Positions 2,903 through 22,151 are shown, counted from the first letter of the stretch. The stretch is DNA of 24,000 bases from Bacillota bacterium (GCA_028280325.1 JANQLZ010000052.1:7751-31750), one strand, 5' to 3'. Translations and numbers: made by a program. The notes: generated from the sequence alone by a model not told the origin.

Positions 2903-3035
2903 TAGTGTTCTCAGGGTTGTAAAGTTTTAAGTTTATCAAGGATAGGCAAAGTTTCAAGAATAATGTACCTAGGCCCATTATAAGAAAACCATAGTCTATA
3001 ATGGTAGTTGAGATGTAGAGTTGAGAGGAAAAATA

Positions 3036-3389
3036 ATGAAAGATCCAATAAACATTGAAGCAATGCTAAAGATGTCACAAGATCTCTGGGAGAAGAATAA
3101 AAACAATTGGTCACCGATGGAACCTGAGCATGGTCGCACATTCATATTGTACATGATTGAAGAAATAGGAGAAGTGATATCCATCATCAAAAAGAAAGGC
3201 GAAAATCAAATTATGGAGAATCCTGAAGTTAGAGAAAGGTTCATAGAGGAAATGTGCGATGTGATGATGTACTATTCGGATGTTTTAAATCGATTTGGAA
3301 TTAGCTCTAAAGAATATAGTGAGGTATACAATAAAAAATTTCAAAGCAACATTACAAGAGACTATAAAGTAGATCATGAGAACAGTTAG
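3036..3389 (+). CDS. MazG-like nucleotide pyrophosphohydrolase (small all-alpha NTP-PPase)
   Basis: The ORF track opens at TTG 3021, but ATG 3036 lies 6 nt after SD gagagga (3023-3029). Paired acidic helices EEIGEV and EEMCDVMMY are typical of the MazG/NTP-PPase fold. Size is about 117 aa. Confidence 0.6.
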   Translation: MKDPINIEAMLKMSQDLWEKNKNNWSPMEPEHGRTFILYMIEEIGEVISIIKKKGENQIMENPEVRERFIEEMCDVMMYYSDVLNRFGISSKEYSEVYNKKFQSNITRDYKVDHENS

Positions 3390-3450
3390 CAGTAAATATA
3401 GAGTGCTTACACCCCGGGTCCCCTAATTGGATCACAGTAAACGTCTTTAA

Positions 3451-3486
3451 GACCCACTCAAAATGAGATTTTGAGTGGGTCTTTTG
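3451..3486 (+). terminator. Rho-independent terminator after the MazG-like gene
   Basis: Perfect 14-bp stem GACCCACTCAAAAT / ATTTTGAGTGGGTC with a 3-nt loop (GAG), followed by TTTTG. It lies between convergent genes. Confidence 0.7.
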
Positions 3487-3518
3487 TATCAGATTATAAT
3501 AATTGTTTAATAAGGTGA

Positions 3519-4466
3519 TTATAGACTCAAAACATAATCGTTAAAAGTATTTTCCAGGTCTGTAAGCAGCTCGAGCTTAGCTATCACTTTTTCTAATTTA
3601 TTTGCCTGAAGATAAGTTTGAGTAGCGCCAAATGCCTTAGCTTTGTTCAAAAAGATATTAGCCAGCTCTTGGTCGTAATCCTTAAAAAAGTTATAGTAGT
3701 CAGAGCATCTTCTGGCTGCCAGTTGAAAACTAAAGAATCTCAGATTATTCTCTACATGAATGGGTAGATTACCTTGTTGCATGACCTTTTTCATATAATT
3801 AAAGGCATTGGCTCCTGTAATTAAACTATTCTGCAAATTATCTTCACCGGCAATGGCGTTTTTCAATCTTGTTATGACATTTGATTTAATTTGGATATCG
3901 TCAGTAGCCCTGACTCTGTTGAATTTTCCCCACATCGAGTATGATCCACTTTTATACACTATTTTTTCGGCGAAACAGGATTCCATAAATATCTCAACAG
4001 GTAGATGTACAAACGGGAACCCTGCTGGATCGTGGAAGTAAATATTGTACTCATCTATATCATAAACAGCAACATAGTGATCAACACCATTCAAGTCCTG
4101 GTGATTAGGATTGCTGATCAAGTAGCCCATGTCTAAGGGGCCGACAATTACAGGTCCGCCCGTCAGGAGATCGTGTAATTTTCTCAGTGCTTTTTCCCTA
4201 TGATTTCCTTCACAATTACTATCGAAATACCTTCCATAACGAAGTCCGAGGTTATCCAAGGCAAAGCTGATAGCTTCTTCTGGATCAAGCATTGGGCTTG
4301 AAAAGAAAGGAACGCTGTTCTCGCCTTTAGTCCAAAACGCACTGAATCCAATCATCATTAAACTCTCTAAGTAACTTGAATGATACTCATAATCAAATGA
4401 CTGTAACACCATTGAGGTAGAGTTAGCGTAACAATAGTGTCCAGATCCGACATAATTTAAGTTCAT
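3519..4466 (-). CDS. BtrH-N-like papain-fold cysteine peptidase/acyltransferase with helical C-terminal domain (DUF4872-like)
   Basis: 315 aa. N-terminal GSGHYCYANS (candidate nucleophile Cys), later GVDHYVAVYDIDEYNIYFHDP (His/Asp region), then an all-helical C-terminus. Strong SD aaggagag upstream of ATG 4466. The family assignment is from memory of the domain layout. Confidence 0.45.
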   Translation of the reverse strand: MNLNYVGSGHYCYANSTSMVLQSFDYEYHSSYLESLMMIGFSAFWTKGENSVPFFSSPMLDPEEAISFALDNLGLRYGRYFDSNCEGNHREKALRKLHDLLTGGPVIVGPLDMGYLISNPNHQDLNGVDHYVAVYDIDEYNIYFHDPAGFPFVHLPVEIFMESCFAEKIVYKSGSYSMWGKFNRVRATDDIQIKSNVITRLKNAIAGEDNLQNSLITGANAFNYMKKVMQQGNLPIHVENNLRFFSFQLAARRCSDYYNFFKDYDQELANIFLNKAKAFGATQTYLQANKLEKVIAKLELLTDLENTFNDYVLSL

Positions 4467-4516
4467 AATACTCTCCTTAATTTACTTTTTGTGTTAAGCT
4501 TATTATATAAGTCTAT

Positions 4517-4535
4517 TACGACATATACTGTCGTA
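4517..4535. promoter_or_regulatory. Inverted repeat, candidate operator of the WYL regulator
   Basis: TACGACA-tatac-TGTCGTA (perfect 7-bp arms) in the 91-bp divergent intergenic region. It sits just downstream of a TATATA -10-like element (4504-4509; TTTACT at 4481-4486 is 17 nt upstream). Confidence 0.35.
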
Positions 4536-4557
4536 GTTGAGGAAAAAGGTGTTCAAA

Positions 4558-5501
4558 TGAATAGGTTTAAGAGGCTTTATACAATTTTACAGACGATAAA
4601 TCGAAAAAAGAAATTTACTGCCCGGGAACTGGCTGAGGAGTTCAATGTTTCGGTAAGAACTATTCAAAGAGATTTATTGGAGCTTGCGGATCTTGGTGTC
4701 AGTTTGTATGCTACCGTTGGTAATTCAGGAGGATATGAAGTTGTAACTGAGAGAGTTTTACCTCCGGTATCTTTCACCGTGAATGAAGCTACAGCGATGT
4801 TTTTCGCTTATAAGTCTTTAGAGAATTACAATCAGCTACCATTTGATATTGAGAGTATTTCGGCATTAGAGAAGCTGTATAACTGTTTACCTGCAGATGC
4901 TAAAGAGAACATAGACAGTATGAGAGATAAAGTCATGTTTTGGTCGCCGCCAAGAGAGAGAACTCTGGAACATCTAAAATCAGTCTTTGAAGCAGTGCTC
5001 AGCTCCAATACGATACAGATTAAATATGTTTCTACAAACAAGACTAAAGCGAGGGTGATACAACCATTTGGTCTGTACACTCAACATGGCTACTGGTATG
5101 CTACGGCCTATTGTTTTAAGAATCAGGAGTTAAGGCAGTTTAGAGTAGACAGAATTAGCGAAGTGGAGTCATCTACCCAGGAGCCATTAGATCAGATTCA
5201 AAAGCTAAAGCTGGAGGATTGGTTTGAAATCCCCCAGAGTAGACTGACAGAGGAATTGCTTGTAGAACTTACAGGCGAGGGTGTCAGGGTGTGTGAGCTG
5301 GAACCTTATCTGGCAAAATACATTGAAAAGAAAGGCGATGGTACAGCTTTTATCTCCTGTAAAATACAAAGAAGTGATCTAAATTACTATGCAAATTTCT
5401 TTCTCAGTGCTGGCAAAGGAGCAAAAGTGATAAGTCCCATAACTTTGTGTGAACTGATTATTGAGAAAATTAAGGATATCGGTACTGTTTACAAAGTATG
5501 A
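4558..5501 (+). CDS. WYL-domain transcriptional regulator (YafY family: HTH-WYL-C-terminal extension)
   Basis: The ORF track opens at 4491, but ATG 4558 follows SD gaggaaaaagg. HTH is ARELAEEFNVSVRTIQRDL. WYL core is HGYWYATAYCFKNQELRQFRVDRI. Confidence 0.82.
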
Positions 5502-5561
5502 TTATACTTTGAGCCAAGGCATAATGGTCAACCGTTGAGGTGGCTGGGGAGTAGCGATATT

Positions 5562-6806
5562 TTATTTAAGCATATTAATAATGATTTTGGCACAGTCTTT
5601 GGCCCCATTTTCTGATCGGATTTTTTCACCGATCATTTTTGCTTTTGTTTGAATTGTTGGATTGTAAGCTTCTGAAATAGCAGCGGCAAGTCTCTTTGGG
5701 GTTAACTTTTTGGCATAAATTGGTTTTACACCAATGCCTAGATCATATGAGCGATGGGCCCAGGCGAACTGATCATTCGAAAAAGGAATAATGATACTTG
5801 GAACTCCTGCTCTAAAGCCGGCAGCAGAAGTACCGGCTCCCCCATGATGGCATACTGCTGAGACATGGTTAAATAGCCAGGTATGTGGAATACTACCCAG
5901 TGCGAAAATGTCTTTTGTAAGTTTAGCAGGCTGACCAAAGCCACTGACAATACCCCGTTTGCCACTGTCTGTGATTGCTTCAACTACCAGTTTACCTAGT
6001 TTATCGTGCTTTTTCATCATAGACATGCTTCCAAAACCTATATAGACTGGTTTTTCACCACTTGCCAAAAAAGCAGCCAATGCAGGATCAGGCCTGTAGT
6101 CATTACTTTCTTCAACAAACCAATAGCCAGTTTGATGGATATGATCGTTCCAGTCATCAGGACGTTTAAAGATATAATTACTACAGGAAACAAGAGCAGG
6201 TTGTTCAGATTTGTTGTGATATTCGAATGGGGCTCTGAAGTCCTGTGGCAAACTTCCAAACTGTTTTTTCCAAAAAGACTTAATAGAACTCTTTGAAGCC
6301 ATCCATAGCATACCTTGCAACATGGTGTAACTCAGTTTTATATTTAGAGCAGTAGGTTTCGATTTACCATACATTACAACAGATAAGTATTCCTTAGTTT
6401 TATGCATTGGAAAAGGTGAAGCAAGCACAGTTGGGATACCCAGCTGTTTGCCAGTAAAATAACCAATAGTACACCCGGGGTGGTAAATGATTAGTTCACT
6501 GTTTTTACATGCTTCGAAGTATTCTTTTGTTGTATAAATGCCATATGATTTCATTTTGTTGAAGGCAAGCAGCATTTTTATTGGATTATCTGCTGAGCCA
6601 GCTGCTTCAAGAAGCTTAGGGTCGATATTCAATGATGATATATCAACACTGATTGGATGGAATCCAATACCATAGCCAGTGATGAAGTTCTCAAAGTTTT
6701 TGTTGCCAACAATACGTACTTCTTTTCCCAGTTTAATTAATTGTTGAGCCAGAGCAATATACGGTTGGAAGTCGCCTCTTGAACCGGCGCAGAGAATTGT
6801 AATCAT
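5562..6806 (-). CDS. GT1-family UDP-glycosyltransferase (MGT/sterol-glucosyltransferase-like)
   Basis: 414 aa. N-terminal ILCAGSRGDFQPYIALAQQL. C-terminal nucleotide-sugar signature HHGGAGTSAAGFRAGVPSIIIPFSNDQ. SD ggggaga. Confidence 0.8.
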   Translation of the reverse strand: MITILCAGSRGDFQPYIALAQQLIKLGKEVRIVGNKNFENFITGYGIGFHPISVDISSLNIDPKLLEAAGSADNPIKMLLAFNKMKSYGIYTTKEYFEACKNSELIIYHPGCTIGYFTGKQLGIPTVLASPFPMHKTKEYLSVVMYGKSKPTALNIKLSYTMLQGMLWMASKSSIKSFWKKQFGSLPQDFRAPFEYHNKSEQPALVSCSNYIFKRPDDWNDHIHQTGYWFVEESNDYRPDPALAAFLASGEKPVYIGFGSMSMMKKHDKLGKLVVEAITDSGKRGIVSGFGQPAKLTKDIFALGSIPHTWLFNHVSAVCHHGGAGTSAAGFRAGVPSIIIPFSNDQFAWAHRSYDLGIGVKPIYAKKLTPKRLAAAISEAYNPTIQTKAKMIGEKIRSENGAKDCAKIIINMLK

Positions 6807-6853
6807 AATGTTCTCCCCATCTTTCAGATTTTAAAGTACACTTGTTTATTCCG

Positions 6854-6865
6854 ACAACCTGTTGT
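6854..6865. promoter_or_regulatory. Short inverted repeat, possible TetR operator
   Basis: ACAAC-ct-GTTGT. It lies in the spacer of a candidate tetR-side promoter (TTGTTT-17-TATGGT) and overlaps the -35 (TTGTCG) of a candidate GT-side promoter (18 nt to TAAAAT). Only 5-bp arms. Confidence 0.2.
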
Positions 6866-6951
6866 ATGGTATTAGTATAAGTGGCTCAAACGCATGATTC
6901 AATCAACAATACTGTAAGAAGTGTTGGATTAATGATAAACGGAGGAAGAAA

Positions 6952-7527
6952 ATGAACAAAAAACAACCTAAAACAACAGCTAAAACAAAACAAGCAATAA
7001 AAGATGCTTTTTGGGAGTTATACAAGCAGCAAAAGATTGAAAAGATTACAGTCAAAGATATTACAATGAGGGCAGGATATAACAGATCAACGTTTTATGC
7101 ATATTTTACAGATGTTTATGATGTACTCGAGCAAATTGAGGAAGATCTGATGCCTGGTGTAGAACATTTGCCACCAGTAGGTGTTACAGTAGAGCATCAA
7201 ACTGATTTAATAAACAATTTAATTCTTATTTATGAGAAGCATAGTGAGTATTATTCGGTACTGCTGAGTGAAAAAGGTGATCCAGGCTTTGCCATTAAAA
7301 TGAAAAATGTATTTAAATCTATGATGATGGAATCTGTCAAAGATCAAACAGCAACCCCCATGGAAGAATTGGATTACGCATTGGAGTTTCTCGTCAGCGC
7401 TACAATTTCAATAATAAAGCATTGGTTTCAACAGGATAAGAATATGCCTAAAGAAAGACTGATGCCCTTGATGTATAAGCTCATGAATAACAAGTTTGTC
7501 CAAGACTTGGGTATTGGGTGGAGATAG
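6952..7527 (+). CDS. TetR/AcrR-family transcriptional regulator
   Basis: 191 aa. N-terminal HTH TVKDITMRAGYNRSTFYAYF. SD ggagg. Divergent from the glycosyltransferase gene. Confidence 0.85.
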   Translation: MNKKQPKTTAKTKQAIKDAFWELYKQQKIEKITVKDITMRAGYNRSTFYAYFTDVYDVLEQIEEDLMPGVEHLPPVGVTVEHQTDLINNLILIYEKHSEYYSVLLSEKGDPGFAIKMKNVFKSMMMESVKDQTATPMEELDYALEFLVSATISIIKHWFQQDKNMPKERLMPLMYKLMNNKFVQDLGIGWR

Positions 7528-7629
7528 TCTTTCGTATATTTATCACAATAATAGACAACTTTTATGATAAAGTTAAGCTTGTATTGCTTTTTCAAGCAAT
7601 TATAGAAATAAAGAGCGGGAAGTGATCAT

Positions 7630-8178
7630 ATGTTGCCTAAGTTATATTACCAAATTAAAGGTAATCAAAGTATAAAAATAAGTTTAGAAGAATTATTTGA
7701 TTTCATAACAACAGAACCAACTAATACAGATCAATATTGGTTTAATACTGAAGAAACACTTATTATACTGGCAGCAAATGCTGCTGGTGGAATTTATGCA
7801 GCCATAGAAAAGGGAGATAACATAGAGAAGTTTCCAATAGTGTATATTAGTTCTGAAGGGCAGGCTGGCAAAATAGCTAAATCGTTCAGCGAGCTAGTTC
7901 AACTTATTATTCAATATCCCTACTGGCATGATATGTTAAGGTTCTCAGATGGGGGAGACTTGGAAAAGATGTTTGAAGCTATTCTATACTTAGAAAATGA
8001 GAGAATAGAGGTTCATTCTGATTATAAAGAAGTTCAGCATCAGATTATTGATAAATTGGGGATTGTCAATCGTAGCGATATATTGGAAAATATGCTAAAA
8101 GTAGTTTTTGAAAAGCCATATTTCAGAGTCTTCTCTGCTAATGATAACACTATGTCTGATCATTTAATCGATATTTAG
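7630..8178 (+). CDS. Hypothetical protein, SMI1/KNR4 (SUKH)-like immunity-type fold suspected
   Basis: 182 aa. The pattern ILAANAAGGIYAAIEKGDNIEKFPIVYISSEGQAGKIAKSFSELVQLI resembles the SUKH core (GG.xY...PVvy...g....iA.sF.efl). Motif reading only. Confidence 0.35.
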   Translation: MLPKLYYQIKGNQSIKISLEELFDFITTEPTNTDQYWFNTEETLIILAANAAGGIYAAIEKGDNIEKFPIVYISSEGQAGKIAKSFSELVQLIIQYPYWHDMLRFSDGGDLEKMFEAILYLENERIEVHSDYKEVQHQIIDKLGIVNRSDILENMLKVVFEKPYFRVFSANDNTMSDHLIDI

Positions 8179-8595
8179 GGCAAGAAAATCATTAAGTATT
8201 ATATAAGCAGTTGCCTATAGTAGAGGTGACTGTGTTTTTCAAGTAAACATTTGATATACATAAACTGCTATTTCGGTTCACAGGTGGAATTTAGTAGTCT
8301 TTATTTAAGTTAGTAGAAGTAATTGACTTCAACATTACAATGACTGCTCAACTTTTTCATGGTTTTCTGTTGTGTTTTTACTACCGGCTGTTGGCTATAT
8401 GTTTATGAAAGAATCAATATATATCTGTTTGATATTTTACTGCCTTTTTTATTTAATGACATTAAAATAATGCAAAATTTGAAAGCAATAAGAAAGGTGA
8501 TAATCCCACTAACTTAATTGACATTGGGTGGAACAGAGATGGAGTGTAAAGCTTAAAACATGAGAATAGAGAATAACTGAGAGGACGTGGTACAA

Positions 8596-9435
8596 ATGAA
8601 GGTTATTTTAAGCAGGAAAGGATTTGATTCTGGAACAGGGGGCTATGCCAGTCCCATAATGCCAGATGGAACATTGCTTTCGTTACCTATTCCAGACTCT
8701 TTTTCAGCTGTTAAATACACAGATATAAATTACAATGGAAGTAGTTATCATACTATAATGAGCTCTTTGAAAGGTGATTATTTAAAAAAAGGCGGAAAGA
8801 AAAGTGTGTTAACTCCAAATTGTACATGTCACTTTGATCCCGACTTGATGAGGAATGCCCTTCCCAGAGAAGAGGGCTGGCGAGGGCTTTTTGGGCAAAT
8901 TGATCGAGTGCAGTCTCATTTAGTAAATCAGGGAATTGAAGAAGGTGATTTGTTTCTTTTCTTTGGTTGGTTTAGAAAAACAATAGTAAGAAATGGTGAG
9001 CTGAAGTTTGATCCCAAAGATAGATTCGGTCGACATATAATTTATGGCTATCTGCAAATTGACCAAATTATTCGAGCAGATAGCGAGAAGAAGCTTGAAA
9101 AATGGATAATGCATCATCCCCATGCATTGGCAAGTAGATTAAGTAGATTTAATAATACGATATACATCTCTAAGGAAAGCCTGACGTTTATCGATAATAA
9201 TCCAGGGTTTGGTGTTTTTAAGTATGCGAGTCATCGCGTATTGACAAAAGCCGGTGAGAAAAACAGATCTTATTGGGGACTTCCAGAGGAGTTTAAGAGC
9301 CTTACTATCTCATGCCATAAGCAAAGTAATTGGCAAGACGGCTACTTCAAATCAAATGCCAGAGGCCAAGAGTTTGTAATCCAGCAAAATCAAATGGTCA
9401 GGCAATGGGTAAAAACACTTTTTAGGAAAGGATGA
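8596..9435 (+). CDS. Conserved hypothetical protein, possibly Nmad3-like (nucleotide-modification-associated domain)
   Basis: The ORF track starts at GTG 8587. ATG 8596 is 10 nt after SD gagagga (8579-8585). N-terminus is MKVILSRKGFDSGTGGYASPIMPDGTLLSLPIPD. The family name is an unverified recollection. Confidence 0.3.
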   Translation: MKVILSRKGFDSGTGGYASPIMPDGTLLSLPIPDSFSAVKYTDINYNGSSYHTIMSSLKGDYLKKGGKKSVLTPNCTCHFDPDLMRNALPREEGWRGLFGQIDRVQSHLVNQGIEEGDLFLFFGWFRKTIVRNGELKFDPKDRFGRHIIYGYLQIDQIIRADSEKKLEKWIMHHPHALASRLSRFNNTIYISKESLTFIDNNPGFGVFKYASHRVLTKAGEKNRSYWGLPEEFKSLTISCHKQSNWQDGYFKSNARGQEFVIQQNQMVRQWVKTLFRKG

Positions 9436-10394
9436 GAAAAATAGAAAAGAGTAAATTCTATGGATTATGTTTACAAGGGAAAATCCATAAGGCAATAGCC
9501 TATTTGGAAAGCTTGCAACCTCAAACAGAAGAGGTGAAAGATTTAAAAACAAAGTACACAAGACGATTTCTACTAAGGCAGGAAGAGGTAATACCCAAAA
9601 CAGATGATCCATGGATTGAAATAGTTTTGTCATCTTATCGCAACTATTATTTAGCTGTATTAACTGGATATGATGTGAAGCTGGCTGAAGAACGATTAAT
9701 TGCAGAACTGTCATCATGTTTAGCTGGTTCTATCTATTATGCAATAGATGCAATTGAGAAAGAACTTAAATATAAATTCCAAGAAAAAGGTTATAGCTTC
9801 TTAGGTGGTGATACGTCGCCTTTTTATGGCCCATATATATGGAAGCATACGGAACAGAAATCTTACCAGGTAAAAATACCTGATGGAGTTCAAAAAGTCA
9901 ATGTTTTTTACATCTCCGATTTCCTGATGATCAGCTGGGCCTATTTTGCAACATTTGGAGTAGTCTATGCGGGCGGCTGGGCTAAAGAAGAGGGACTATA
10001 TTATGTTGTCAGAGAGGATACTGCAATCGATGATACTTCTGTAGACTTTGTAACATGTTTTCTTAAACATGAAGCACAACATCTTTATGATTTTAAACAT
10101 AACCCTTCACTAAAAGGCTATCAACTGGAATATAGAGCTAAACTGGTAGAGCTTATTTATTACCCCAATAATAAAAACTTGCTTGAGAAGTTTCATTTTG
10201 AGGCAGCAAATGATAGTGCTTTACCTCATTCCTATGCATCGCACCTAATTATGGAGGAGTATATAAAGAAGCTCAATATTCTTAATCCTATGAACTGGTG
10301 GCAATATTTTGAGGAGTCGGTGTTACGTCAAATAGCAGTTGAGTTATTTAAGGAGAGTTTGAATACTTTAACCGTGTCCACATCTGACATGTAA
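9432..10394 (+). CDS. Hypothetical protein with HExxH (gluzincin-like) metallopeptidase motif
   Basis: 320 aa. Start overlaps the upstream stop in ATGA (9432-9435). H213-E-A-Q-H217 (nt 10068-10082) with Glu residues at 233 and 240 as possible third ligands. Helical N-terminal half. Confidence 0.35.
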   Translation: MRKIEKSKFYGLCLQGKIHKAIAYLESLQPQTEEVKDLKTKYTRRFLLRQEEVIPKTDDPWIEIVLSSYRNYYLAVLTGYDVKLAEERLIAELSSCLAGSIYYAIDAIEKELKYKFQEKGYSFLGGDTSPFYGPYIWKHTEQKSYQVKIPDGVQKVNVFYISDFLMISWAYFATFGVVYAGGWAKEEGLYYVVREDTAIDDTSVDFVTCFLKHEAQHLYDFKHNPSLKGYQLEYRAKLVELIYYPNNKNLLEKFHFEAANDSALPHSYASHLIMEEYIKKLNILNPMNWWQYFEESVLRQIAVELFKESLNTLTVSTSDM

Positions 10395-10458
10395 CTGCAA
10401 GGAAGAAGTACCAAATCAGTATGTAAAACAACATAGCCAAACATTTAAAGGAGAGAAC

Positions 10459-11103
10459 ATGAAGCAATATATTAATCAGGTATCAGAGATTTGGGGTTTA
10501 GGCAGCATCACTGTTAAAAACCTCAGCTCTAAAGGACAAAGAGCAGTACATATAATTCAAACAGACGGTGGTAATTATATCCTGAAATTCTTCCCCCCAA
10601 AAATTAAAGAGAATTTAATTATTAAATATACAGAATCACTGCGGTACCTTAATACTAAAAATCCAAAATTAGCTCCAGAGATAATTGAAACATTTAACGG
10701 AGATTTATATTCAGAAATCAATGGCCAATTTGCATATCTGATGGAAAAAATAGCAGGAAGACCGCTTCAGGAGAATATTGAAGATGAGTACAGGCTGGGT
10801 CAGGCTTCCGCCCGACTACATCAATTTTCTGATTACAATATTCCCAGTTGTTTGGATATTGACAGTATAATATCAGACATGAAAACCAAGTTTGCAGAGT
10901 ACCAGTTTAAAAGTGAATACAATAAAATTATTGATTCATTACCTGATTTTAATAAGTTTAAACAGACCTTTATCCATACTGATATCGGGCCGCATAATGC
11001 CATGATAGCAGATAGTAATCAAGTAATATTTGTTGATTGGGATGATGCCGGTCAGGGTTCTCCTTATATCGATATTGGGTATCCACTGATTACCCAGTTA
11101 TGA
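10459..11103 (+). CDS. APH/choline-kinase-fold phosphotransferase, N-terminal and catalytic part of a split gene
   Basis: 214 aa. Catalytic loop FIHTDIGPHNAMI (HxDxxxxN) and metal-binding FVDWDDAG. Ends at TGA 11101-11103, right after the activation-segment region. SD aaaggagag. Confidence 0.65.
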   Translation: MKQYINQVSEIWGLGSITVKNLSSKGQRAVHIIQTDGGNYILKFFPPKIKENLIIKYTESLRYLNTKNPKLAPEIIETFNGDLYSEINGQFAYLMEKIAGRPLQENIEDEYRLGQASARLHQFSDYNIPSCLDIDSIISDMKTKFAEYQFKSEYNKIIDSLPDFNKFKQTFIHTDIGPHNAMIADSNQVIFVDWDDAGQGSPYIDIGYPLITQL

Positions 11104-11336
11104 ATAAGAGAACAAAAGAAATAAAATTTAAGCAAAATGTAGCAAAGGCCTTTTATCAGGGGTACAACTCAATTTTACCAATTAAGAAAGAGGAGCTGGA
11201 ATTAATTTATTATGGCGCAGTGTTTATGCAGCTCATGTATATGCCCTGCTTTGGAAATGATGCTGTAGAAGATATGTGGGCGATTCTGAAGTTTAGTATT
11301 GATAATAAGGGAATTCTGTTATCAGCTATTCCTTAA
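11100..11336 (+). CDS. C-terminal part of the same APH-fold phosphotransferase (other frame)
   Basis: 78 aa. FYQGYNSILPIKKEELELIYYGAVFMQLMY looks like the helical C-lobe of APH-type kinases. ATG 11100 overlaps the upstream TGA (ATGA). 214+78 aa approximates a full-length enzyme. Confidence 0.5.
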   Translation: MNKRTKEIKFKQNVAKAFYQGYNSILPIKKEELELIYYGAVFMQLMYMPCFGNDAVEDMWAILKFSIDNKGILLSAIP

Positions 11337-11417
11337 AAAAATATCGTAAGCAAGCTGTTGGGGAAATACGGTAAAGTGAATGATATTATCACCATGGATG
11401 AACCCTCCCACGGCTGA
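11331..11417 (+). pseudogene. Relic of a second RumA/RlmD-like methyltransferase gene
   Basis: 11346-11405 aligns codon for codon with rlmD 1841-1900: 48 of 60 nt by hand count. VSKLLGKYGKVNDIITMDEP versus VKKLLGKYGPVNEIITMDEP is 16 of 20 aa. No start codon, and a stop at 11415-11417. Confidence 0.65.
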
Positions 11418-11445
11418 TGCGTTACGTCATTTAGGAGTAGTCTTC

Positions 11446-11662
11446 CAATAAAAAATTAATTTGCTAAGCTTGATTACCATAATTATTCATTATCAATTGT
11501 TCATTGTTACTTCTTAATCTATGCCAGCTCATATGATGTTTGTAAATTTTTTGGCTAATTATTGATATCTCGGCATAATTCTGAATGGCAAAGTTTAAAG
11601 GAGGCGTTGAGGTGGTTAGCGTGCTTTCAATCCACTGTCACTTCCATAATTGCTCCAGCTGC
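11446..11662 (+). repeat. Left copy of an imperfect direct-repeat module (R1 11446-11529; X1 11530 to about 11625; degenerate R2 about 11639-11662)
   Basis: R1 versus R3 (14579-14648): about 61 of 72 aligned positions identical by eye, plus one 14-nt indel. X1/X2 share collinear anchors tatgatgtttgt (11532/14476), aattctg (11577/14515), ttgagg (11607/14544), ccataatt (11644/14609), ccagct (11655/14643). Confidence 0.6.
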
Positions 11663-11701
11663 GCATCACACGCTAAATATCCATTAGCTTATATTATGTG
11701 A
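11612..11701 (+). CDS. Possible 29-aa Cys/His-rich small ORF (MVSVLSIHCHFHNCSSCASHAKYPLAYIM)
   Basis: GTG 11612 is 7 nt after a strong SD AAAGGAGG (11597-11604). It lies inside the repeat module, so it could equally be a gene relic. Confidence 0.2.
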   Translation: MVSVLSIHCHFHNCSSCASHAKYPLAYIM

Positions 11702-11739
11702 ATCAGTTATTATAAAGAGAAAGGCATTTTATTAGTACG

Positions 11740-12432
11740 GTGACAAGGAATATGATGATAATTGATATGATGGTAAAATTAAGAGACTCAGGAATACTTG
11801 ATTTGCTGAGTATAGCACTTAGCACTTTAATTCCACTTATAATCTTGTATACAACGTTAAAACATAGTAAAGAGCAATTTGGTCTACAACTTAAACAACA
11901 ACTCAAAGAACATTTAGAAAATATAGAAAAAATGGAGTATCAACATAAAGAAATAATGCAACAACAATCTGAGTGCAATCGAATTGCTGCAATGCCCTAT
12001 TTAATAATAGACAAATCAGATATAACAATAAGCAAGGAAAATAATACTATATATTTTAATATTCCTTTTAAAAATATAGGTAATGGGACAGCTATCAAAT
12101 TAACTGGAAAGTATCTTTCCAATTTGTCTGAAGCTTATTTATCCCCTATGTGTGAAACATTATCTTCTGTTTACGGTTGTGCCAGTCCTTTTGATTATGA
12201 GACTGATGTTTTAAAAGCCAATGACATATCATATATCATGCTTTATCAGCTATTAATTAAACCTAACACTCCAGTAAATTGTGATGAGGTTACATTTAAA
12301 ATATTATTTAAAGACATGTATTATAATCAATATGAGCAGCAATTTATGTTCTTATTTAACAACAATACTTTAGATGGTAGCATTTATATTGATCGTGTCT
12401 CTGTAAAACCTCCTGAGGTGTGTGAAAAATGA
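11740..12432 (+). CDS. Hypothetical membrane-anchored protein (N-terminal TM helix, coiled-coil linker, beta-sandwich-like C-terminal domain)
   Basis: The ORF opens at GTG 11740; ATG 11752/11755 after aaggaa is a more likely start. Hydrophobic ILDLLSIALSTLIPLIILYTTL, then a Q/E/K-rich linker, then a beta-rich region with FKNIGNGTAIKL (NxGxGxA motif, as in CARDB-like beta-sandwiches). Confidence 0.5.
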   Translation: MTRNMMIIDMMVKLRDSGILDLLSIALSTLIPLIILYTTLKHSKEQFGLQLKQQLKEHLENIEKMEYQHKEIMQQQSECNRIAAMPYLIIDKSDITISKENNTIYFNIPFKNIGNGTAIKLTGKYLSNLSEAYLSPMCETLSSVYGCASPFDYETDVLKANDISYIMLYQLLIKPNTPVNCDEVTFKILFKDMYYNQYEQQFMFLFNNNTLDGSIYIDRVSVKPPEVCEK

Positions 12433-12705
12433 CTATGATACCTTTTTGTTTGCTTAAGGCATGTAGAGAACGGATGATTACATAATTATACCTTGTGGTG
12501 CCTTACGCCAAAATATTTAAAAACAGATATGTCTCTAAGTATTATTTTTGTGAATATTTTAACTATTGTTTTATTTTTTAGTGTTTTATTTTTGTATTCA
12601 GAAATCGTTACTACTCCTAAATCTAATACAATCCTGAAAGCCACGGCTTAATGGTGATAACACTGATAAATACTGTATTTATGAAATTGATTAGGGGGAA
12701 GATAC

Positions 12706-14271
12706 ATGCAAATAAAGTTAAGGAGCTATCAGATTGAGGCTGTTGAGAAGATTAATGCTTTCTTTTGGTCAGATGTTAATAAGGCCAAGATACATTTAGC
12801 TTCTGGTTTGGGAAAATCAAGTATTATTATATCTTCTATAGAAAGAATACTTGAAAAGAAAAAAAATGCTTTAATACTAATTCTATTCTCTAGGCGAGTT
12901 ATTTGTTATCAGTTTGAAGATGCAGTTAGAAAGGTATTATTGAATGTGCGGATTTCTAAAAACCTTAATGACTCAGAGTTTAGTAATGTTTGCATAACAA
13001 CATATCAAGCGTTCTATAGATTTAGACCAGAAAAGTTAGAAATTTTTGATTTGATTATTTGTGATGAAGCACATTTTTTAAAAAGTGAAAAACATAAAAT
13101 ACTCTTTGATAGTAGTCTAACGAAGTACTTAGGTATAATGAGTACCGAATCATATTCAGAAGGGTGGTTTAGAGATGTAAGGTGTATTTATGTGTACACA
13201 TTGAGAGAGGCATTTAATGATGGATATTTTGAGCACCCCAATGAAAGACAACTAGTTGAGAATTTTTTTGTACCACTATTATCAACACAGAGGTTTAAGA
13301 ATGTACAAACTGGAGTATTATTAAGTGATTATATAAAGGTTGATATGTCAGCAAACAAAGGAGAAGATATTTTTGTTTTTGAAGTAAAAGTTTATAGAGG
13401 ACTTTATAATCCACATAGTACAATAAATGCTGCATTAAACCAAATTATTAGCTATAAAGAAGCTTTAGATAGCCAACCACGATATAAAAAGATCTCATTT
13501 GTTATTATTCTTTTGTGTAAAGTAGAGGAATCTTTTATCCATGAGGTATTTGACAAGTATAAAATTACTATATGGGACATTAGTAATATAATATATCTCT
13601 GCAACAACAACAATGACCTTATAAACTCACTAAGCAAGTATTTACCGTATTCTATAATTGACATTAAAGGACAGGTACCAATAAACCTGAGTTATAATGT
13701 TGGTAAAAGGACTTCATATAAGACCAAAACTCCATTTGCTAAATTAGAATACTTTCAAAATAAGCTTGATGAATGCCAAAAAGGAAGAAATAGTGCTAGG
13801 ACTTATGAAATTATTTGTACAGAAATAGTAAATTATCTGTTCCACACAGAGTTTACACAAATATCTGAGCAACATAGAACAGGTGATGATATGTTCTGTA
13901 TGGATTTATTATGTGGATTGAAGGGTACAACAGAGTTCTGGAAATTCTTGATGCGTTTTTATAATACAAAGTTTATAGTCTTTGAGTACAAAAACTATTC
14001 TGATTATATTTCTCAAAATTTGATTTATACAACAGAAAAGTATTTATTTTCTATGTCTTTGAGAAATGTAGCATTCATAATATCAAGGCTTGGATTCAGT
14101 CCCAATGCGAAAAAAGCAGCTTTGGGATGTTTAAAGGAGCATGGTAAACTAATAATCAGTTTAAATGACGAAGACCTACTTAAAATGATAGCAATAAAGG
14201 TGAATGGTGAGGAGCCATCTGATTATCTCTTATATAAAGTGGAGAATTTATTAATGTCAGTAGATAAATAA
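12706..14271 (+). CDS. SF2 (ResIII-type) helicase N-lobe fused to two PD-(D/E)xK restriction-endonuclease-like modules
   Basis: 521 aa. LRSYQ (5-9), SGLGKS (33-38), ITTYQ (97-101), DEAH (120-123), MSTE (145-148); no helicase motifs IV-VI. D213...E226-V-K228 plus ITIWDISNIIYL. D400...E427-Y-K429. SD aggggga. Confidence 0.6.
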   Translation: MQIKLRSYQIEAVEKINAFFWSDVNKAKIHLASGLGKSSIIISSIERILEKKKNALILILFSRRVICYQFEDAVRKVLLNVRISKNLNDSEFSNVCITTYQAFYRFRPEKLEIFDLIICDEAHFLKSEKHKILFDSSLTKYLGIMSTESYSEGWFRDVRCIYVYTLREAFNDGYFEHPNERQLVENFFVPLLSTQRFKNVQTGVLLSDYIKVDMSANKGEDIFVFEVKVYRGLYNPHSTINAALNQIISYKEALDSQPRYKKISFVIILLCKVEESFIHEVFDKYKITIWDISNIIYLCNNNNDLINSLSKYLPYSIIDIKGQVPINLSYNVGKRTSYKTKTPFAKLEYFQNKLDECQKGRNSARTYEIICTEIVNYLFHTEFTQISEQHRTGDDMFCMDLLCGLKGTTEFWKFLMRFYNTKFIVFEYKNYSDYISQNLIYTTEKYLFSMSLRNVAFIISRLGFSPNAKKAALGCLKEHGKLIISLNDEDLLKMIAIKVNGEEPSDYLLYKVENLLMSVDK

Positions 14272-14473
14272 TTGTTAATTTACTATTGAAAAGTTATAGA
14301 TGGAGTCAAACTTACAGCTGAGATATGTTTTAATAAAAGCCTTTTCTTACAGCTTAATCAAGGTATAATCTCGAAGCAATGGTTTAATGCTAGTGTTTAG
14401 ATGGCTTTTTTTACTACAGATTGAATTTTATATCTTTGTAATACGTAACAATAATCAAAAACATATATCTATA

Positions 14474-14650
14474 TCTATGATGTTTGTGACTATAGTTACG
14501 CTTAATATAGCTTCAATTCTGTGAGCCATGGTATAAAGATGTTTTGAGGGTGTCTAGCAATTTATTTGCAGCTTATATCAATAAAAAATTAGTTGCCAAA
14601 CTAAATTACCATAATTGTTTATTATTACTTCTTAATTCTATACCAGCTTG
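14474..14650 (+). repeat. Right copy of the direct-repeat module (X2 14474 to about 14560; R3 14579-14648)
   Basis: See the left copy. Anchors occur in the same order and at similar spacing. Together the two copies bracket 11663-14473. Confidence 0.6.
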
Positions 14651-14769
14651 TGGTGGTCGATTTGCTAGCGAAAGAATAGGAAGCGTATATAGTGTTATAC
14701 TGGGTATAAATCAATGTATTCTTATTTAATAAGGGATGCTTGTATTGGATATAATTGGAGGCTTAAAAG

Positions 14770-15402
14770 ATGAATACTTTAACGGAGACTTTAGCACAAA
14801 TTAATAAAGCTAGCAAATTTGGTGATCTAAAAAAACTTGCCAAGGAAATTAAAAAAAACCATACTTTAGCCCTAAAACTTTGGGAAACTGGTCAGTACTA
14901 CCCCCGACTCTTAGCAGTATTAATCTTGGACCGAAAGTTAGTTGATCAGGTTTTTATGGATAAAATCGCTACTGATTTAAAAAACCAAAGAGTAGATGAA
15001 TGGAATCAGATATTAGATTGGTTATATGCTAATCAATTGAAGAAATCAAAAAAATTAATAGCTATGGTTGAAAAGTGGAGAACCTCCGAATCGCCAGTGT
15101 TAAGAAAGCTGTTCTGGACCCACCAGTACCGCATAAGGTGGACAGGTAAGACGGGGCATGATAATACGGATGAGATTATAGGTGTTATAGAAGAGACCAT
15201 CATGAGTGAAAGGCGTCTTATCCAAGAGACCATGGTTATGACAGCAGGTTGGATTGGTGTCTATAATTTGGCTTATAGAGACCGTTTGATTATTTTAGGT
15301 GAAGATACAGAGCTATTTAAGGATGTAGAGGTGCCACCGGGTTGTACATCATGGTATTTACCAGACTTTATTAGAACAGAAGCAGAAAAAAGAGGGCTCT
15401 AA
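14770..15402 (+). CDS. HEAT-repeat DNA alkylation repair protein (AlkD/AlkC-like, COG4912-type)
   Basis: 210 aa, all-helical. LALKLWETGQYYPRLLAVLILD, ESPVLRKLFW and IQETMVMTAGWIG resemble the repeat pattern of the DNA_alkylation family. SD ggagg. Confidence 0.5.
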   Translation: MNTLTETLAQINKASKFGDLKKLAKEIKKNHTLALKLWETGQYYPRLLAVLILDRKLVDQVFMDKIATDLKNQRVDEWNQILDWLYANQLKKSKKLIAMVEKWRTSESPVLRKLFWTHQYRIRWTGKTGHDNTDEIIGVIEETIMSERRLIQETMVMTAGWIGVYNLAYRDRLIILGEDTELFKDVEVPPGCTSWYLPDFIRTEAEKRGL

Positions 15403-15588
15403 TTTTAGTAATTTAATTATGGAGAAAGCCAAGGGCATCAGTACTGTTTATAAACTGCTTAAGGTATAGCGATCGGCGTATTTGCTACATCACTTGGTAG
15501 CTTTATTGCCTACTTAGCCATTGTTTTATGTCGAAATGAAGAAAAATATCTGACCAGGCCAGGTCTTAGCAAGATTTGTTAAGAAAGC

Positions 15589-15612
15589 AAGATTATTTTA
15601 ATATATAATCTT
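15589..15612. promoter_or_regulatory. Inverted repeat overlapping a -10-like element upstream of the AraC-family gene
   Basis: AAGATTAT-N8-ATAATCTT (8-bp arms) containing TATAAT (15604-15609). Preceded by a 9-bp direct repeat agcaagatt (15568-15576 and 15586-15594). Confidence 0.3.
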
Positions 15613-15614
15613 AC

Positions 15615-16487
15615 ATGACAGGAGGGGTCTATATTTTGGAAAAATTGGAATCTGTAATTAAGGCACTTAAATTCATCGACCATAATTTTCAAGAGGACCT
15701 GAGTTATATAACTATTGCTGAAAAATATAATATCTCACCATATTATTTCCATCGTATTTTTACCAAAATTGTTGGAAAAACAATAACGGATTTCATCAGA
15801 GAAAGGCGTCTTCAGGAGGCCGGCAGATATCTCTATAATACTGATCACTCAATTACTGAGATATGCTTTAACTGCGGCTTCTCATCTCATCAGTCATTTT
15901 CACGAATTTTCAAAAATTATTTTGGTGTTTCTCCTCGAGAGTACAGAAAGATGTTATATATCCCTTCGTCACAGTCTATTGAAGACATTATTGCAAATTT
16001 CCGAAACAAAACATTAGGGGGTATTAATATGGAACCGAGAATAATGGATCAGGGCAAATTAATTATTGCAGGTGTTTCTGGTGATGGCCGAAAAACTAAT
16101 GAGCTCTGGGAAGAGTTTATGAACTTAGCTGATGGGGTTAAGGGCAGAGTTTCTGATCATTACTATGAAGTGAGACTGAGTGGAGCAGGGATTAATGAGT
16201 GCTATATTGGCTTTAATGTCAAGCAAAAGGACAGTTTTGTTGGACATAAACGGATTGAATTACCCGCCTCCAAATATGCCTGTTTTGACATCTTTGTTGC
16301 GAAAGGCTTTGAAAGCAGTAATCAGGCAATTGAGCAATGGTTGGAAAAGCATAAAGACCGTTATGCTGAGAGGCTTTTCGAGAACGGAGCGCATTACGCG
16401 GTAGAGTACTATGATGAAAGATTTAAAGGCAACAGTGAAGAATCAATTGTTGAAATATGGATTCCAATAATTGATGTGAAAAAATAG
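15615..16487 (+). CDS. AraC-family transcriptional regulator with GyrI-like effector-binding domain
   Basis: Two HTH units (ITIAEKYNISPYYFHRIF; ITEICFNCGFSSHQSFSRIFKNYFGVSPREYRK), then a GyrI-like domain ending VEIWIPI. The true start may be TTG 15636, 11 nt after SD AGGAGG (15619-15624). Confidence 0.85.
   Translation: MTGGVYILEKLESVIKALKFIDHNFQEDLSYITIAEKYNISPYYFHRIFTKIVGKTITDFIRERRLQEAGRYLYNTDHSITEICFNCGFSSHQSFSRIFKNYFGVSPREYRKMLYIPSSQSIEDIIANFRNKTLGGINMEPRIMDQGKLIIAGVSGDGRKTNELWEEFMNLADGVKGRVSDHYYEVRLSGAGINECYIGFNVKQKDSFVGHKRIELPASKYACFDIFVAKGFESSNQAIEQWLEKHKDRYAERLFENGAHYAVEYYDERFKGNSEESIVEIWIPIIDVKK

Positions 16488-19949: not shown

Positions 19950-22151
<2,202 letters not shown>

What the first reader, a model, noticed from the sequence alone, without database searches (positions are those of the whole stretch)
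11446..14650. The two-gene cassette is AT-rich and bracketed by imperfect direct repeats (about 130-180 nt modules)
Seen: a module at 11530-11662 and one at 14474-14650 share collinear anchors. These are tatgatgtttgt, aattctg, ttgagg, ccataatt and ccagct, in the same order with spacings differing only by short indels. An extra copy of the R part (11446-11529) matches 14579-14648 at about 61 of 72 aligned positions by eye, plus one 14-nt indel. The repeats enclose 11663-14473, which holds only the membrane protein gene and the helicase-nuclease gene. Hand counts on single 60-nt lines give 10/60 G+C (12001-12060) and 16/60 (13081-13140) inside. Outside they give 20/60 (601-660), 29/60 (2461-2520), 29/60 (20461-20520) and 38/60 (21301-21360). 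Inference: the cassette was acquired horizontally. Either it inserted into a repeated intergenic element, or it duplicated flanking sequence on insertion. Repeats of this size could also mediate its loss by homologous recombination.
Basis: seen in the sequence. Interest (0 to 1): 0.65.

Follow-up and report, generated by a model that had tools for sequence, protein, structure and literature searches.

The report
Acquired nuclease genes, one flanking repeat
Two AT-rich, horizontally acquired defence-island-type genes lie between two diverged copies of one short (about 70-84 nt) non-coding repeat that looks like an old rearrangement scar, not the end of a mobile element, so the finding is real but fairly ordinary.

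Summary
The core observation holds, but it is smaller and messier than described. One direct repeat is robust. R1 (11446-11529) and R2 (14579-14648) share 62 of 72 aligned bases, and no shuffle reaches their score. The second "L" part (11530-11622 / 14474-14560) is not significant in an honest search space (p about 0.06-0.11). The "ccataatt...ccagct" tail is not significant either. The claimed 130-180 nt modules are therefore not supported.

The AT-richness is real: GC3 is 0.23 and 0.25, against 0.36±0.04 for the other 20 ORFs. Its left edge (about 11691) matches a gene-module edge, not R1.

The "two-gene cassette" is not a unit. The small membrane-anchored protein and the ATPase-dual-nuclease protein each occur separately in other Clostridia. 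There they sit in defence islands or prophages (Gabija, NACHT, Lamassu/TIR, Mrr/Abi, terminase neighbourhoods).

Nothing marks an active mobile element. There is no integrase, tRNA, terminal inverted repeats, hairpin, Rfam match or extra R copy. The left junction also holds a 23-codon methyltransferase gene fragment, so it is a mosaic of scars.

No close relative exists in the searched collections, so no empty site could be checked. Horizontal acquisition is supported. The insertion mechanism is unresolved. Repeat-mediated loss is unlikely, because the longest identical run is 13 nt.

The parts
11335..11406 (+). Fragment of a paralogous or homeologous rlmD-like methyltransferase gene. It matches codons 111-133 of the 1502-2902 gene and lies directly after the stop codon of the 78-aa ORF. 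It is a rearrangement scar.
   Evidence: 76-80% nt identity to 1830-1901. blastx gives 18/23 aa identical, KNIVSKLLGKYGKVNDIITMDEP vs ENAVKKLLGKYGPVNEIITMDEP. It does not match the L020 methyltransferase.
11446..11529 (.). R1, the left copy of the only robust direct repeat. It is non-coding, 25% GC, and contains an internal 14-nt tandem duplication (11481-11494 / 11495-11508).
   Evidence: 62/72 identical to R2. 0/500 shuffles reach the score. No fold better than shuffles. No Rfam hit.
11530..11622 (.). L1, the claimed second repeat module. The similarity to 14474-14560 is not statistically secure.
   Evidence: 57/80 identical with 26 gap columns. p = 0.06-0.11 in the unbiased search space. 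It shares one exact 12-mer, TATGATGTTTGT.
11698..12433 (+). Small-protein gene module (CDS 11755-12432, 225 aa). The protein has an N-terminal TM helix, a long helix and a beta-sandwich. Function is unknown. It travels on its own.
   Evidence: 85.6% nt and 76% aa identity to L020 7948-8679, with homology ending at the stop codon. dN/dS 0.36. Family of 15 proteins. AF2 model has pLDDT 70.7 and no PDB match with E<0.01. The low-GC block begins at about 11691.
12434..12705 (.). Spacer between the two genes, AT-rich (29% GC). It is not related to the flanks.
   Evidence: Local alignment to either flank is not significant (z 0.0 and 2.0).
12706..14271 (+). Gene for a 521-aa protein with a single SF2 RecA-like ATPase domain (1-175) followed by two PD-(D/E)XK-type nuclease domains (180-310, 344-517). 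It is a candidate stand-alone defence nuclease.
   Evidence: Pfam ResIII E 1.4e-18 and weak PDDEXK_9. AF2 pLDDT 84.4. D213/E226/K228 conserved in 36-37 of 37 sequences and D400/E427/K429 in 37/37; Walker-A K in only 28/37. phrog_31260 matches aa 208-520, E 7.5e-57. PADLOC gives only partial hits: REase_I and PDC-M36A. 153 homologues, mainly Clostridia.
14474..14560 (.). L2, the right-hand counterpart of L1 (not statistically secure).
14579..14648 (.). R2, the right copy of the robust direct repeat. It lies 121 nt upstream of the alkD-like start codon and is 23% GC.
   Evidence: It is absent upstream of the alkD homologues in L045-L050.
14726..14755 (+). Best sigma-70-like promoter match in the region (TTAATA-18-TATAAT, 10/12). 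It lies downstream of R2 and just upstream of the alkD-like gene.
   Evidence: This is a consensus match only.
14770..15402 (+). alkD-like DNA alkylation repair gene. It is the right flank of the block.
   Evidence: Pfam DNA_alkylation E 1.6e-08. Closest relatives are 67-73% identical and sit in unrelated contexts.
10459..11336 (+). Left flank: an APH/CotS-like kinase gene split into 214-aa and 78-aa ORFs that overlap by ATGA.
   Evidence: Pfam APH E 2.7e-18. Fusing the two ORFs extends weak kinase-fold matches into the 78-aa part.

Best explanation
The AT-rich 3-kb block is not one mobile cassette. It consists of two single-gene modules that travel independently and were acquired horizontally. 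They sit in a variable, defence-type stretch between a split kinase gene and an alkD-like gene.

One module encodes a small membrane-anchored protein of unknown function. The other encodes a protein with half of an SF2 ATPase and two PD-(D/E)XK nuclease domains. It most likely acts as a stand-alone DNA-cutting defence effector. This role is inferred from invariant nuclease motifs and from defence-island and prophage neighbourhoods. It has not been shown.

The block lies between two diverged copies of one short non-coding segment, R (about 70-84 nt, 86% identical). The left junction is a patchwork: a 23-codon piece of a methyltransferase gene, then 40 nt, then R1. I therefore read R1 as a rearrangement scar. 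It would be a short copy, or a homeologous version, of the spacer upstream of alkD. It was probably left by illegitimate or homeologous recombination while the region was assembled, and it then decayed.

R is not an att site, a target-site duplication, an IS or MITE end, an integron attC or an RNA element. It probably has no present function. It is a poor substrate for precise deletion.

Shown: the repeat, the compositional break, the independence of the modules and the absence of mobility hallmarks. Inferred: the scar origin and the defence role.
For: R is real and private to this locus. No copy was found in 575 kb of related loci or in viral contigs.

The two longest direct repeats in the whole 24-kb window both map into the same roughly 200-nt left junction. 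One of them is a gene fragment.

The low-GC block starts at about 11691. That is also where DNA homology to L020 starts (11698), not at R1.

The two genes are found separately elsewhere. The small gene follows Gabija, a NACHT protein or DUF6883. The nuclease gene sits next to LmuB/TIR/integrase, Mrr/Abi_2/IS, or resolvase/terminase/portal genes, and in three viral contigs. Homologues of the nuclease gene are 27-31% GC whatever the host context, which ranges from 29 to 43%.

No integrase or transposase domains were found in or next to the block. There are no tRNA genes, no significant inverted repeats between the flanks, no structure and no Rfam family.

An independent Logan assembly (L001) is identical over 10780-15074, so the arrangement is not an artefact of one assembly.
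Against: No related genome with a comparable locus exists in the collections. The direction and timing of the duplication, and the ancestral single-copy state, are therefore untested.

If the borderline L similarity (p about 0.06-0.11) is real, the arrangement R-L ... L-R needs a more complex history than a single scar.

Conserved blocks of 12-13 nt inside R could reflect function, such as protein binding, rather than shared descent alone.

Only 24 kb of this genome could be read. R could be a dispersed repeat family elsewhere in the genome.
Confidence: 0.5

Rival explanations
1. R1 and R2 are decayed attL/attR of a former integrative element, a CIME-like remnant that lost its integrase. The block entered by site-specific recombination at an R-like attB upstream of alkD.
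For: Direct repeats flank compositionally foreign DNA. One homologue of the nuclease gene sits in an integrase-bearing island (L015).
Against: There is no recombinase in or near the block. There is no tRNA or tmRNA target. The similarity is spread over about 72 nt with scattered mismatches, not an identical core with unrelated arms; the longest identical run is 13 nt. The low-GC edge lies about 160 nt inside R1. The two cargo genes have independent histories.
Confidence: 0.15
2. R is a functional cis-element present twice, for example an operator or UP-like region bound by a local regulator such as the AraC, TetR or WYL proteins of the window. It would be conserved by selection, not left over from insertion.
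For: Four perfectly conserved 12-13 nt blocks lie within an otherwise diverged AT-rich segment. R2 lies 121 nt upstream of alkD, next to an AraC-type regulator gene. A CATAAT (-10-like) hexamer is conserved in both copies (seen directly in the sequence).
Against: No convincing promoter is conserved in both copies. The best alkD promoter match lies downstream of R2. R1 is about 225 nt upstream of the small gene's start codon, and that gene's own conserved upstream region starts only at 11698. R is absent upstream of alkD homologues at 67-73% identity.
Confidence: 0.12
3. Repeat-bearing spacers are recombination handles that allow single-gene defence modules to be swapped in and out of arrays in Clostridia and their phages. 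R would be one such handle.
For: In viral contig L052 the homologous nuclease gene sits in an array of nuclease-type genes (DUF4365, the homologue, Mrr_cat, unknown). These genes are separated by 0.5-1 kb spacers that share repeated modules: 5517-5700 matches 7602-7782 (z 8.5), and 5668-5878 matches 9244-9455 at about 85%.
Against: The other 10 loci tested show no significant flanking repeats. The L052 repeats are unrelated in sequence to R. With 86% identity and perfect runs of at most 13 nt, R is a poor recombination substrate. There is one example on each side only.
Confidence: 0.1
4. The flanking similarity is a chance resemblance between AT-rich intergenic sequences.
For: This holds for the L part and for the ccataatt/ccagct tail, which do not exceed chance.
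Against: For R, 0 of 500 dinucleotide shuffles reach the score under two scoring schemes (z about 6 to 14). No other intergenic pair in the window scores above 20, against 37 for this pair.
Confidence: 0.02

Closest known systems
Genomic islands or islets flanked by imperfect direct repeats, including integrase-less remnants (CIME-type elements)
   Same: A compositionally deviant accessory block lies between direct repeats in a variable region, and it carries defence-type cargo.
   Different: There is no integrase, no tRNA target and no identical core. The repeat does not coincide with the compositional boundary. The cargo consists of two modules acquired independently.
Defence islands and prophage 'moron'-like single-gene modules
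   Same: The genes are AT-rich and self-contained, with their own upstream regions. They recur in different defence islands and prophages.
   Different: No anti-phage activity has been shown for either gene. Neither matches a complete PADLOC v2.0.0 system model.
Hna, a single-protein SF2 helicase + PD-(D/E)XK anti-phage system (PMC13381803)
   Same: One polypeptide combines an N-terminal SF2 ATPase module with a PD-(D/E)XK nuclease. Both occur in a defence-island context.
   Different: Hna has two helicase lobes (HEL1 and HEL2) and one nuclease domain. The window protein has only a HEL1-like lobe and two nuclease-like domains. Its ATPase motifs are degenerate in about a quarter of the family.
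Type I / type III restriction R subunits (ResIII-type motor + nuclease)
   Same: The N-terminal domain matches ResIII, REase_I and EcoAI-type motors.
   Different: There is no Helicase_C lobe. There is no adjacent methyltransferase or specificity gene, either here or in the homologous loci. All NCBIfam scores are far below the cut-offs.
Integron gene cassettes with attC sites
   Same: Short gene units are separated by imperfectly repeated non-coding elements.
   Different: There is no IntI gene. R and L do not form hairpins better than shuffles on either strand. The genes have their own upstream regions. The lineage is Clostridia-like, where integrons are not expected (own knowledge).

Membership tests
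Integrase-mediated genomic island (attL/attR) | Tyrosine or serine recombinase gene within or adjacent to the element | tested here: not met
   Pfam, NCBIfam and PADLOC scans of all ORFs from 8587 to 16487 found no recombinase. None was found elsewhere in the window either.
Integrase-mediated genomic island (attL/attR) | Identical core sequence in both flanking repeats, with unrelated arms | tested here: not met
   The similarity extends over about 72 nt with scattered mismatches. The longest identical run is 13 nt.
Integrase-mediated genomic island (attL/attR) | Insertion at a tRNA/tmRNA gene or another known att target | tested here: not met
   ARAGORN finds no tRNA or tmRNA in the window.
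Integrase-mediated genomic island (attL/attR) | Empty site with a single repeat copy in related genomes | not testable with these tools
   Window proteins are singletons at 90% identity. The nearest relatives of the flank genes have no synteny.
IS element / MITE | Terminal inverted repeats, a transposase, and multiple genomic copies | tested here: not met
   No significant inverted similarity between the flanks (z 0.0). No transposase domain. No further copies in the window or in fetched loci.
Integron cassette / attC | Imperfect palindromic attC able to fold as a single-strand hairpin, plus an IntI integrase | tested here: not met
   DNA folding of R and L on both strands gives z-scores from -0.7 to +2.4 against shuffles. 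No integrase was found.
Structured RNA element (riboswitch, sRNA, T-box) | Match to a covariance model, or folding energy better than shuffles | tested here: not met
   No Rfam match at E<=1 in 10400-15700. No folding signal.
Hna defence system | Complete SF2 helicase core (HEL1 + HEL2) followed by one PD-(D/E)XK domain | tested here: not met
   The AF2 model and Pfam show a single RecA-like lobe (1-175), no Helicase_C, and two nuclease-like domains. The Hna architecture is taken from PMC13381803. No direct sequence comparison with Hna was made.
Type I/III restriction endonuclease R subunit | ResIII + Helicase_C motor together with cognate methyltransferase (and specificity) genes | tested here: not met
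   Only the ResIII lobe matches. No adjacent methyltransferase gene here or in L015-L019.
PD-(D/E)XK nuclease superfamily (cargo protein domains 2 and 3) | alpha-beta-beta-beta-alpha-beta core with a D...(D/E)xK catalytic motif | tested here: met
   The secondary-structure order in the AF2 model fits. D213/E226/K228 and D400/E427/K429 are (near-)invariant in 37 homologues. Pfam PDDEXK_9 gives a weak hit below its cut-off. No fold-level match specific to these domains was obtained.
Two-gene defence system (small protein + nuclease as partners) | Conserved co-occurrence of the two genes across genomes | tested here: not met
   None of 7 loci with the nuclease homologue carries the small gene. 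None of 5 loci with the small-gene homologue carries the nuclease gene.

The most novel reading that the evidence does not exclude
The most novel reading not excluded is a previously undescribed way of shuffling defence genes in Clostridia and their phages. Single-gene nuclease-type defence modules would be embedded in arrays whose long spacers carry shared repeat modules. Those spacers would serve as handles for module gain, loss and exchange without a dedicated recombinase. The R repeat here and the repeat-bearing spacers of viral contig L052 would be two instances. In addition, the half-ATPase/dual-PD-(D/E)XK protein would be a new stand-alone anti-phage effector.
Probability: 0.1. Interest if true: 0.6.

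Novelty: new member of a known kind. Interest (0 to 1): 0.25.

Why it matters
As a mobility feature it matters little. It is one more accessory islet with a decayed flanking repeat, and no active mechanism can be read from it.

Its modest value is twofold. First, it points to an uncharacterised but coherent protein family of more than 150 clusters, mainly in Clostridia and some phages. These proteins combine half of an SF2 ATPase with two invariant PD-(D/E)XK nuclease sites. They sit consistently in defence islands, so the family is a reasonable candidate for a new single-gene defence effector.

Second, it shows that each gene of an apparent "cassette" can have its own history. That is a caution for island-boundary calls based on hand-aligned repeats in AT-rich DNA.

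Tried and rejected
1. Empty-site search. I scanned GTDB representative genomes with the alkD-like protein (best 49% identity, no synteny). I scanned metagenomes with YjjI as anchor (68-79% identity, only the YjjI-activase pair conserved). I looked at the contexts of the closest alkD homologues (67-73% identity, unrelated neighbours). Exact-protein look-ups returned only the source contig and one Logan run. No empty site could be found.

2. R or L as the native alkD upstream region. There is no similarity to the upstream regions of six alkD homologues.

3. A third repeat copy in the intra-cassette spacer 12433-12705. It was suggested by eye ("gattacataattata") and by a blastn hit, but it is not significant.

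4. Dispersed repeat family. There are no further copies in the window or in 575 kb of fetched loci. The R pattern has no hit in viral contigs. The 25 hits to the L pattern equal chance expectation and do not extend.

5. RNA element or attC. There is no Rfam hit and no folding signal.

6. Plasmid or phage DNA-level relatives of 11300-14800: none.

7. The methyltransferase fragment as a trace of an L020-like donor, where the small gene lies downstream of an rlmD-like gene. The fragment matches only the window's own methyltransferase gene, not the one in L020.

8. Fold-level identification of the cargo. PDB and BFVD matches are driven only by the N-terminal ATPase lobe. The small protein has no significant PDB match.

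9. A literature search for PDC-M36 found nothing.
Full report
**What was checked first.** I read 11200-14900, then computed repeats, composition and ORFs. The block between the claimed repeats holds two real genes. One is 11755-12432 (225 aa; the same start is called in an independent Logan assembly). The other is 12706-14271 (521 aa). Upstream lies an APH/CotS-like kinase gene split into 214-aa and 78-aa ORFs. Downstream lie an alkD-like gene, an AraC-type regulator and a YjjI glycyl-radical enzyme pair.

**The repeat.**
- R1 (11446-11529) and R2 (14579-14648) are a genuine direct repeat. 62 of 72 aligned positions are identical, with indels of 1, 14 and 1 nt.
- The local score is 58, against 22.3±2.5 for dinucleotide shuffles of the complete flanks. 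None of 500 shuffles reaches it, under two scoring schemes.
- Across the whole window and both strands, R1 and R2 are each other's only strong hit (36, next best 19-22).
- No other pair of intergenic regions in the window scores above 20, against 37 for this pair.
- The 14-nt indel is an internal tandem duplication in R1.

**The rest of the claimed 130-180 nt module does not survive.**
- L1 and L2 (11530-11622 and 14474-14560) share 57 of 80 aligned positions with 26 gap columns.
- They look significant only when the test is restricted to the hand-picked segments.
- With R masked and the full flanks as search space, p is 61/1000 or 112/1000.
- Window-wide, the L score of 21 is matched by background hits of 20 and 19.
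- The ccataatt/ccagct tail at 11646-11662 is reached by 95 of 500 shuffles.
- If L is nevertheless accepted, the order is R-L on the left and L-R on the right. The flanks are then not collinear modules.

**Composition.**
- The two genes have GC of 0.289 and 0.298 and GC3 of 0.226 and 0.253. The other 20 ORFs average 0.377±0.034 and 0.362±0.039.
- The enclosed 3049 nt are 29.9% GC, and the rest of the window is 38.4%.
- A two-boundary likelihood fit puts the left edge of the low-GC segment at about 11691. That is roughly 160 nt inside R1. The 168 nt between R1 and this edge are 37.5% GC.
- The right edge is diffuse.

**The cargo is two independent modules.**

*The 521-aa protein.*
- It belongs to a coherent family of about 520-aa proteins. 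The search returned 153 hits, full length at 35-55% identity, in Lacrimispora, Merdimonas, Clostridium, Oscillospiraceae and Ruminococcaceae.
- Its homologues sit next to LmuB, a TIR protein and an integrase (L015). Others sit next to Mrr, IS elements and Abi_2 (L016-18), or between resolvase and terminase/portal genes (L019). Three are in viral contigs.
- None of these loci carries the small gene.

*The small protein.*
- It has its own family of 15.
- Its homologues follow a Gabija pair (L020), a 2113-aa NACHT protein (L021/22) or a DUF6883 protein (L023/24). None has the nuclease gene nearby.

*Module boundaries and selection.*
- DNA homology to L020 covers exactly 11698-12433 (85.6%) and stops at the stop codon. 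Homology to L015 covers 12694-14272.
- The small gene is under purifying selection (dN/dS 0.36).
- Homologues of the nuclease gene are 27-31% GC in hosts of 29-43% GC.

Together these results support horizontal acquisition. They refute the idea of a single two-gene cassette or a two-gene system.

**What the cargo protein probably does.**
- The AF2 model (pLDDT 84.4) shows one RecA-like lobe (1-175) followed by two alpha/beta nuclease-type domains at 180-310 and 344-517. There is no second helicase lobe.
- D213/E226/K228 and D400/E427/K429 are (near-)invariant in 37 homologues. The Walker-A lysine is kept in only 28 of 37 and the DExx aspartate in 25 of 37.
- The C-terminal two-thirds match phage family phrog_31260 (E 7.5e-57).
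- PADLOC, NCBIfam and PDB matches are partial and limited to the ATPase lobe, or to one candidate-system C-terminal domain.
- I infer a nuclease effector whose half-ATPase domain is regulatory. It would act alone, as in single-protein helicase-nuclease defences such as Hna. It differs in architecture, because Hna has HEL1, HEL2 and one nuclease domain (PMC13381803).
- The small protein has a TM helix, a long helix and a beta-sandwich. It has no informative structural match.

**What R is not.**
- There is no recombinase or transposase in or beside the block.
- There is no tRNA.
- There is no inverted similarity between the flanks.
- Neither strand forms a hairpin better than shuffles.
- There is no Rfam family.
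- There are no further copies in the window, in 575 kb of related loci, in viral contigs, or in plasmids and phages at DNA level.
- R2 is not conserved upstream of alkD homologues.
- The best alkD promoter match lies downstream of R2.

**What R most likely is.**
- The two longest direct repeats of the entire 24-kb window both fall in the same roughly 200-nt left junction.
- One is R1. The other, 40 nt to its left, is a 72-nt fragment (11335-11406) of an rlmD-like methyltransferase gene. It is 76-80% identical to 1830-1901 and encodes 18 of 23 identical residues.
- The left junction is therefore a mosaic of short, diverged copies of sequences present elsewhere. That pattern is typical of repeated illegitimate or homeologous recombination at a variable site.
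- I read R1 as such a scar. It would be a copy, or a homeologue brought with incoming DNA, of the spacer upstream of alkD. It then diverged to 86% identity and has no present role. My confidence in this reading is about 0.5.

**Rivals.**
- A decayed att pair (0.15).
- A functional cis-element present twice (0.12).
- Recombination handles for module swapping (0.10).

The last idea gains a little support from viral contig L052. There the homologous nuclease gene lies in an array of nuclease-type genes. Their 0.5-1 kb spacers share repeated modules. Ten other loci show nothing similar.

**Limits.**
- The window's proteins are singletons at 90% identity among about 15 billion sequences.
- The only other occurrence is a Logan assembly of SRR20820735. 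It is identical over 10780-15074. It confirms the arrangement but probably derives from the same sample.
- The nearest relatives of the flanking genes share no synteny. No empty site could be examined, and the ancestral state is unknown.
The longest identical run is 13 nt. That is below the length generally needed for efficient RecA-dependent recombination (own knowledge).

**Verdict.** The larger modules are not supported. It carries an uncharacterised but interesting candidate defence nuclease.

Noticed in passing
window 11335-11406 (copy of 1830-1901): A 23-codon fragment of an rlmD-like methyltransferase gene lies directly after the stop codon of the 78-aa ORF. It is 76-80% nt identical to the intact gene 9.5 kb upstream and does not match the L020 methyltransferase.
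   Followed up: yes
window 10459-11103 and 11100-11336: The APH/CotS-like kinase gene is split into 214-aa and 78-aa ORFs in different frames, overlapping by ATGA. Fusing them extends weak kinase-fold matches (Fructosamine kinase 231-279/288, EcKL) into the 78-aa part. This suggests a frameshifted gene. The same sequence is present in the Logan assembly.
   Followed up: partly
window 8587-11336, and 5562-6806 on the minus strand: An Nmad3 (nucleotide modification associated domain 3, E 3e-67) gene overlaps a 320-aa gene with no known family and is followed by the kinase. A GT28-type glycosyltransferase lies nearby. This could be a nucleotide or DNA modification gene set. There are no PADLOC or PHROG hits.
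   Followed up: no
window 3519-4466 (-) and 4491-5501 (+): A WYL/HTH regulator matches the PADLOC WYL model (E 3e-48) and is divergently transcribed from a 315-aa gene that matches no family in any library. WYL regulators often control defence genes. The whole stretch from about 3000 to 15400 may be one variable defence-type region of lower GC.
   Followed up: partly
L052 3951-10563 (IMGVR_UViG_3300010280_000276): An array of nuclease-type single genes (DUF4365/Argonaute-associated REase-like, the helicase-nuclease homologue, Mrr_cat, unknown). The genes are separated by 0.5-1 kb spacers that share repeated modules with GGGGTGA-type motifs: 5517-5700 matches 7602-7782, and 5668-5878 matches 9244-9455 at about 85%.
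   Followed up: partly
L020 3550-8678; L021 1489-8690: Homologues of the small membrane-anchored protein lie at the 3' end of known or likely defence operons. In L020 it follows Gabija GajA/GajB. In L021 it follows a 2113-aa NACHT protein plus a 1054-aa DEAD helicase. This hints at an accessory or stand-alone defence-island gene.
   Followed up: partly
window 12706-14271 (protein residues 31-40, 116-125): In the ~520-aa family the ATPase motifs are degenerate in about a quarter of members (Walker-A K 28/37, DExx D 25/37), while both nuclease motifs are invariant. The window copy keeps GLGKS and DEAH.
   Followed up: yes
window 8179-8586: An unusually long (408 nt) AT-rich (31% GC) non-coding spacer lies upstream of the Nmad3 gene. 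Its content is unexplored.
   Followed up: no
window 19950-22139 (-): The KatG catalase-peroxidase gene is markedly GC-richer (0.46 overall, windows up to 0.51) than the rest of the window (0.37). This is a second compositional outlier, in the opposite direction.
   Followed up: no
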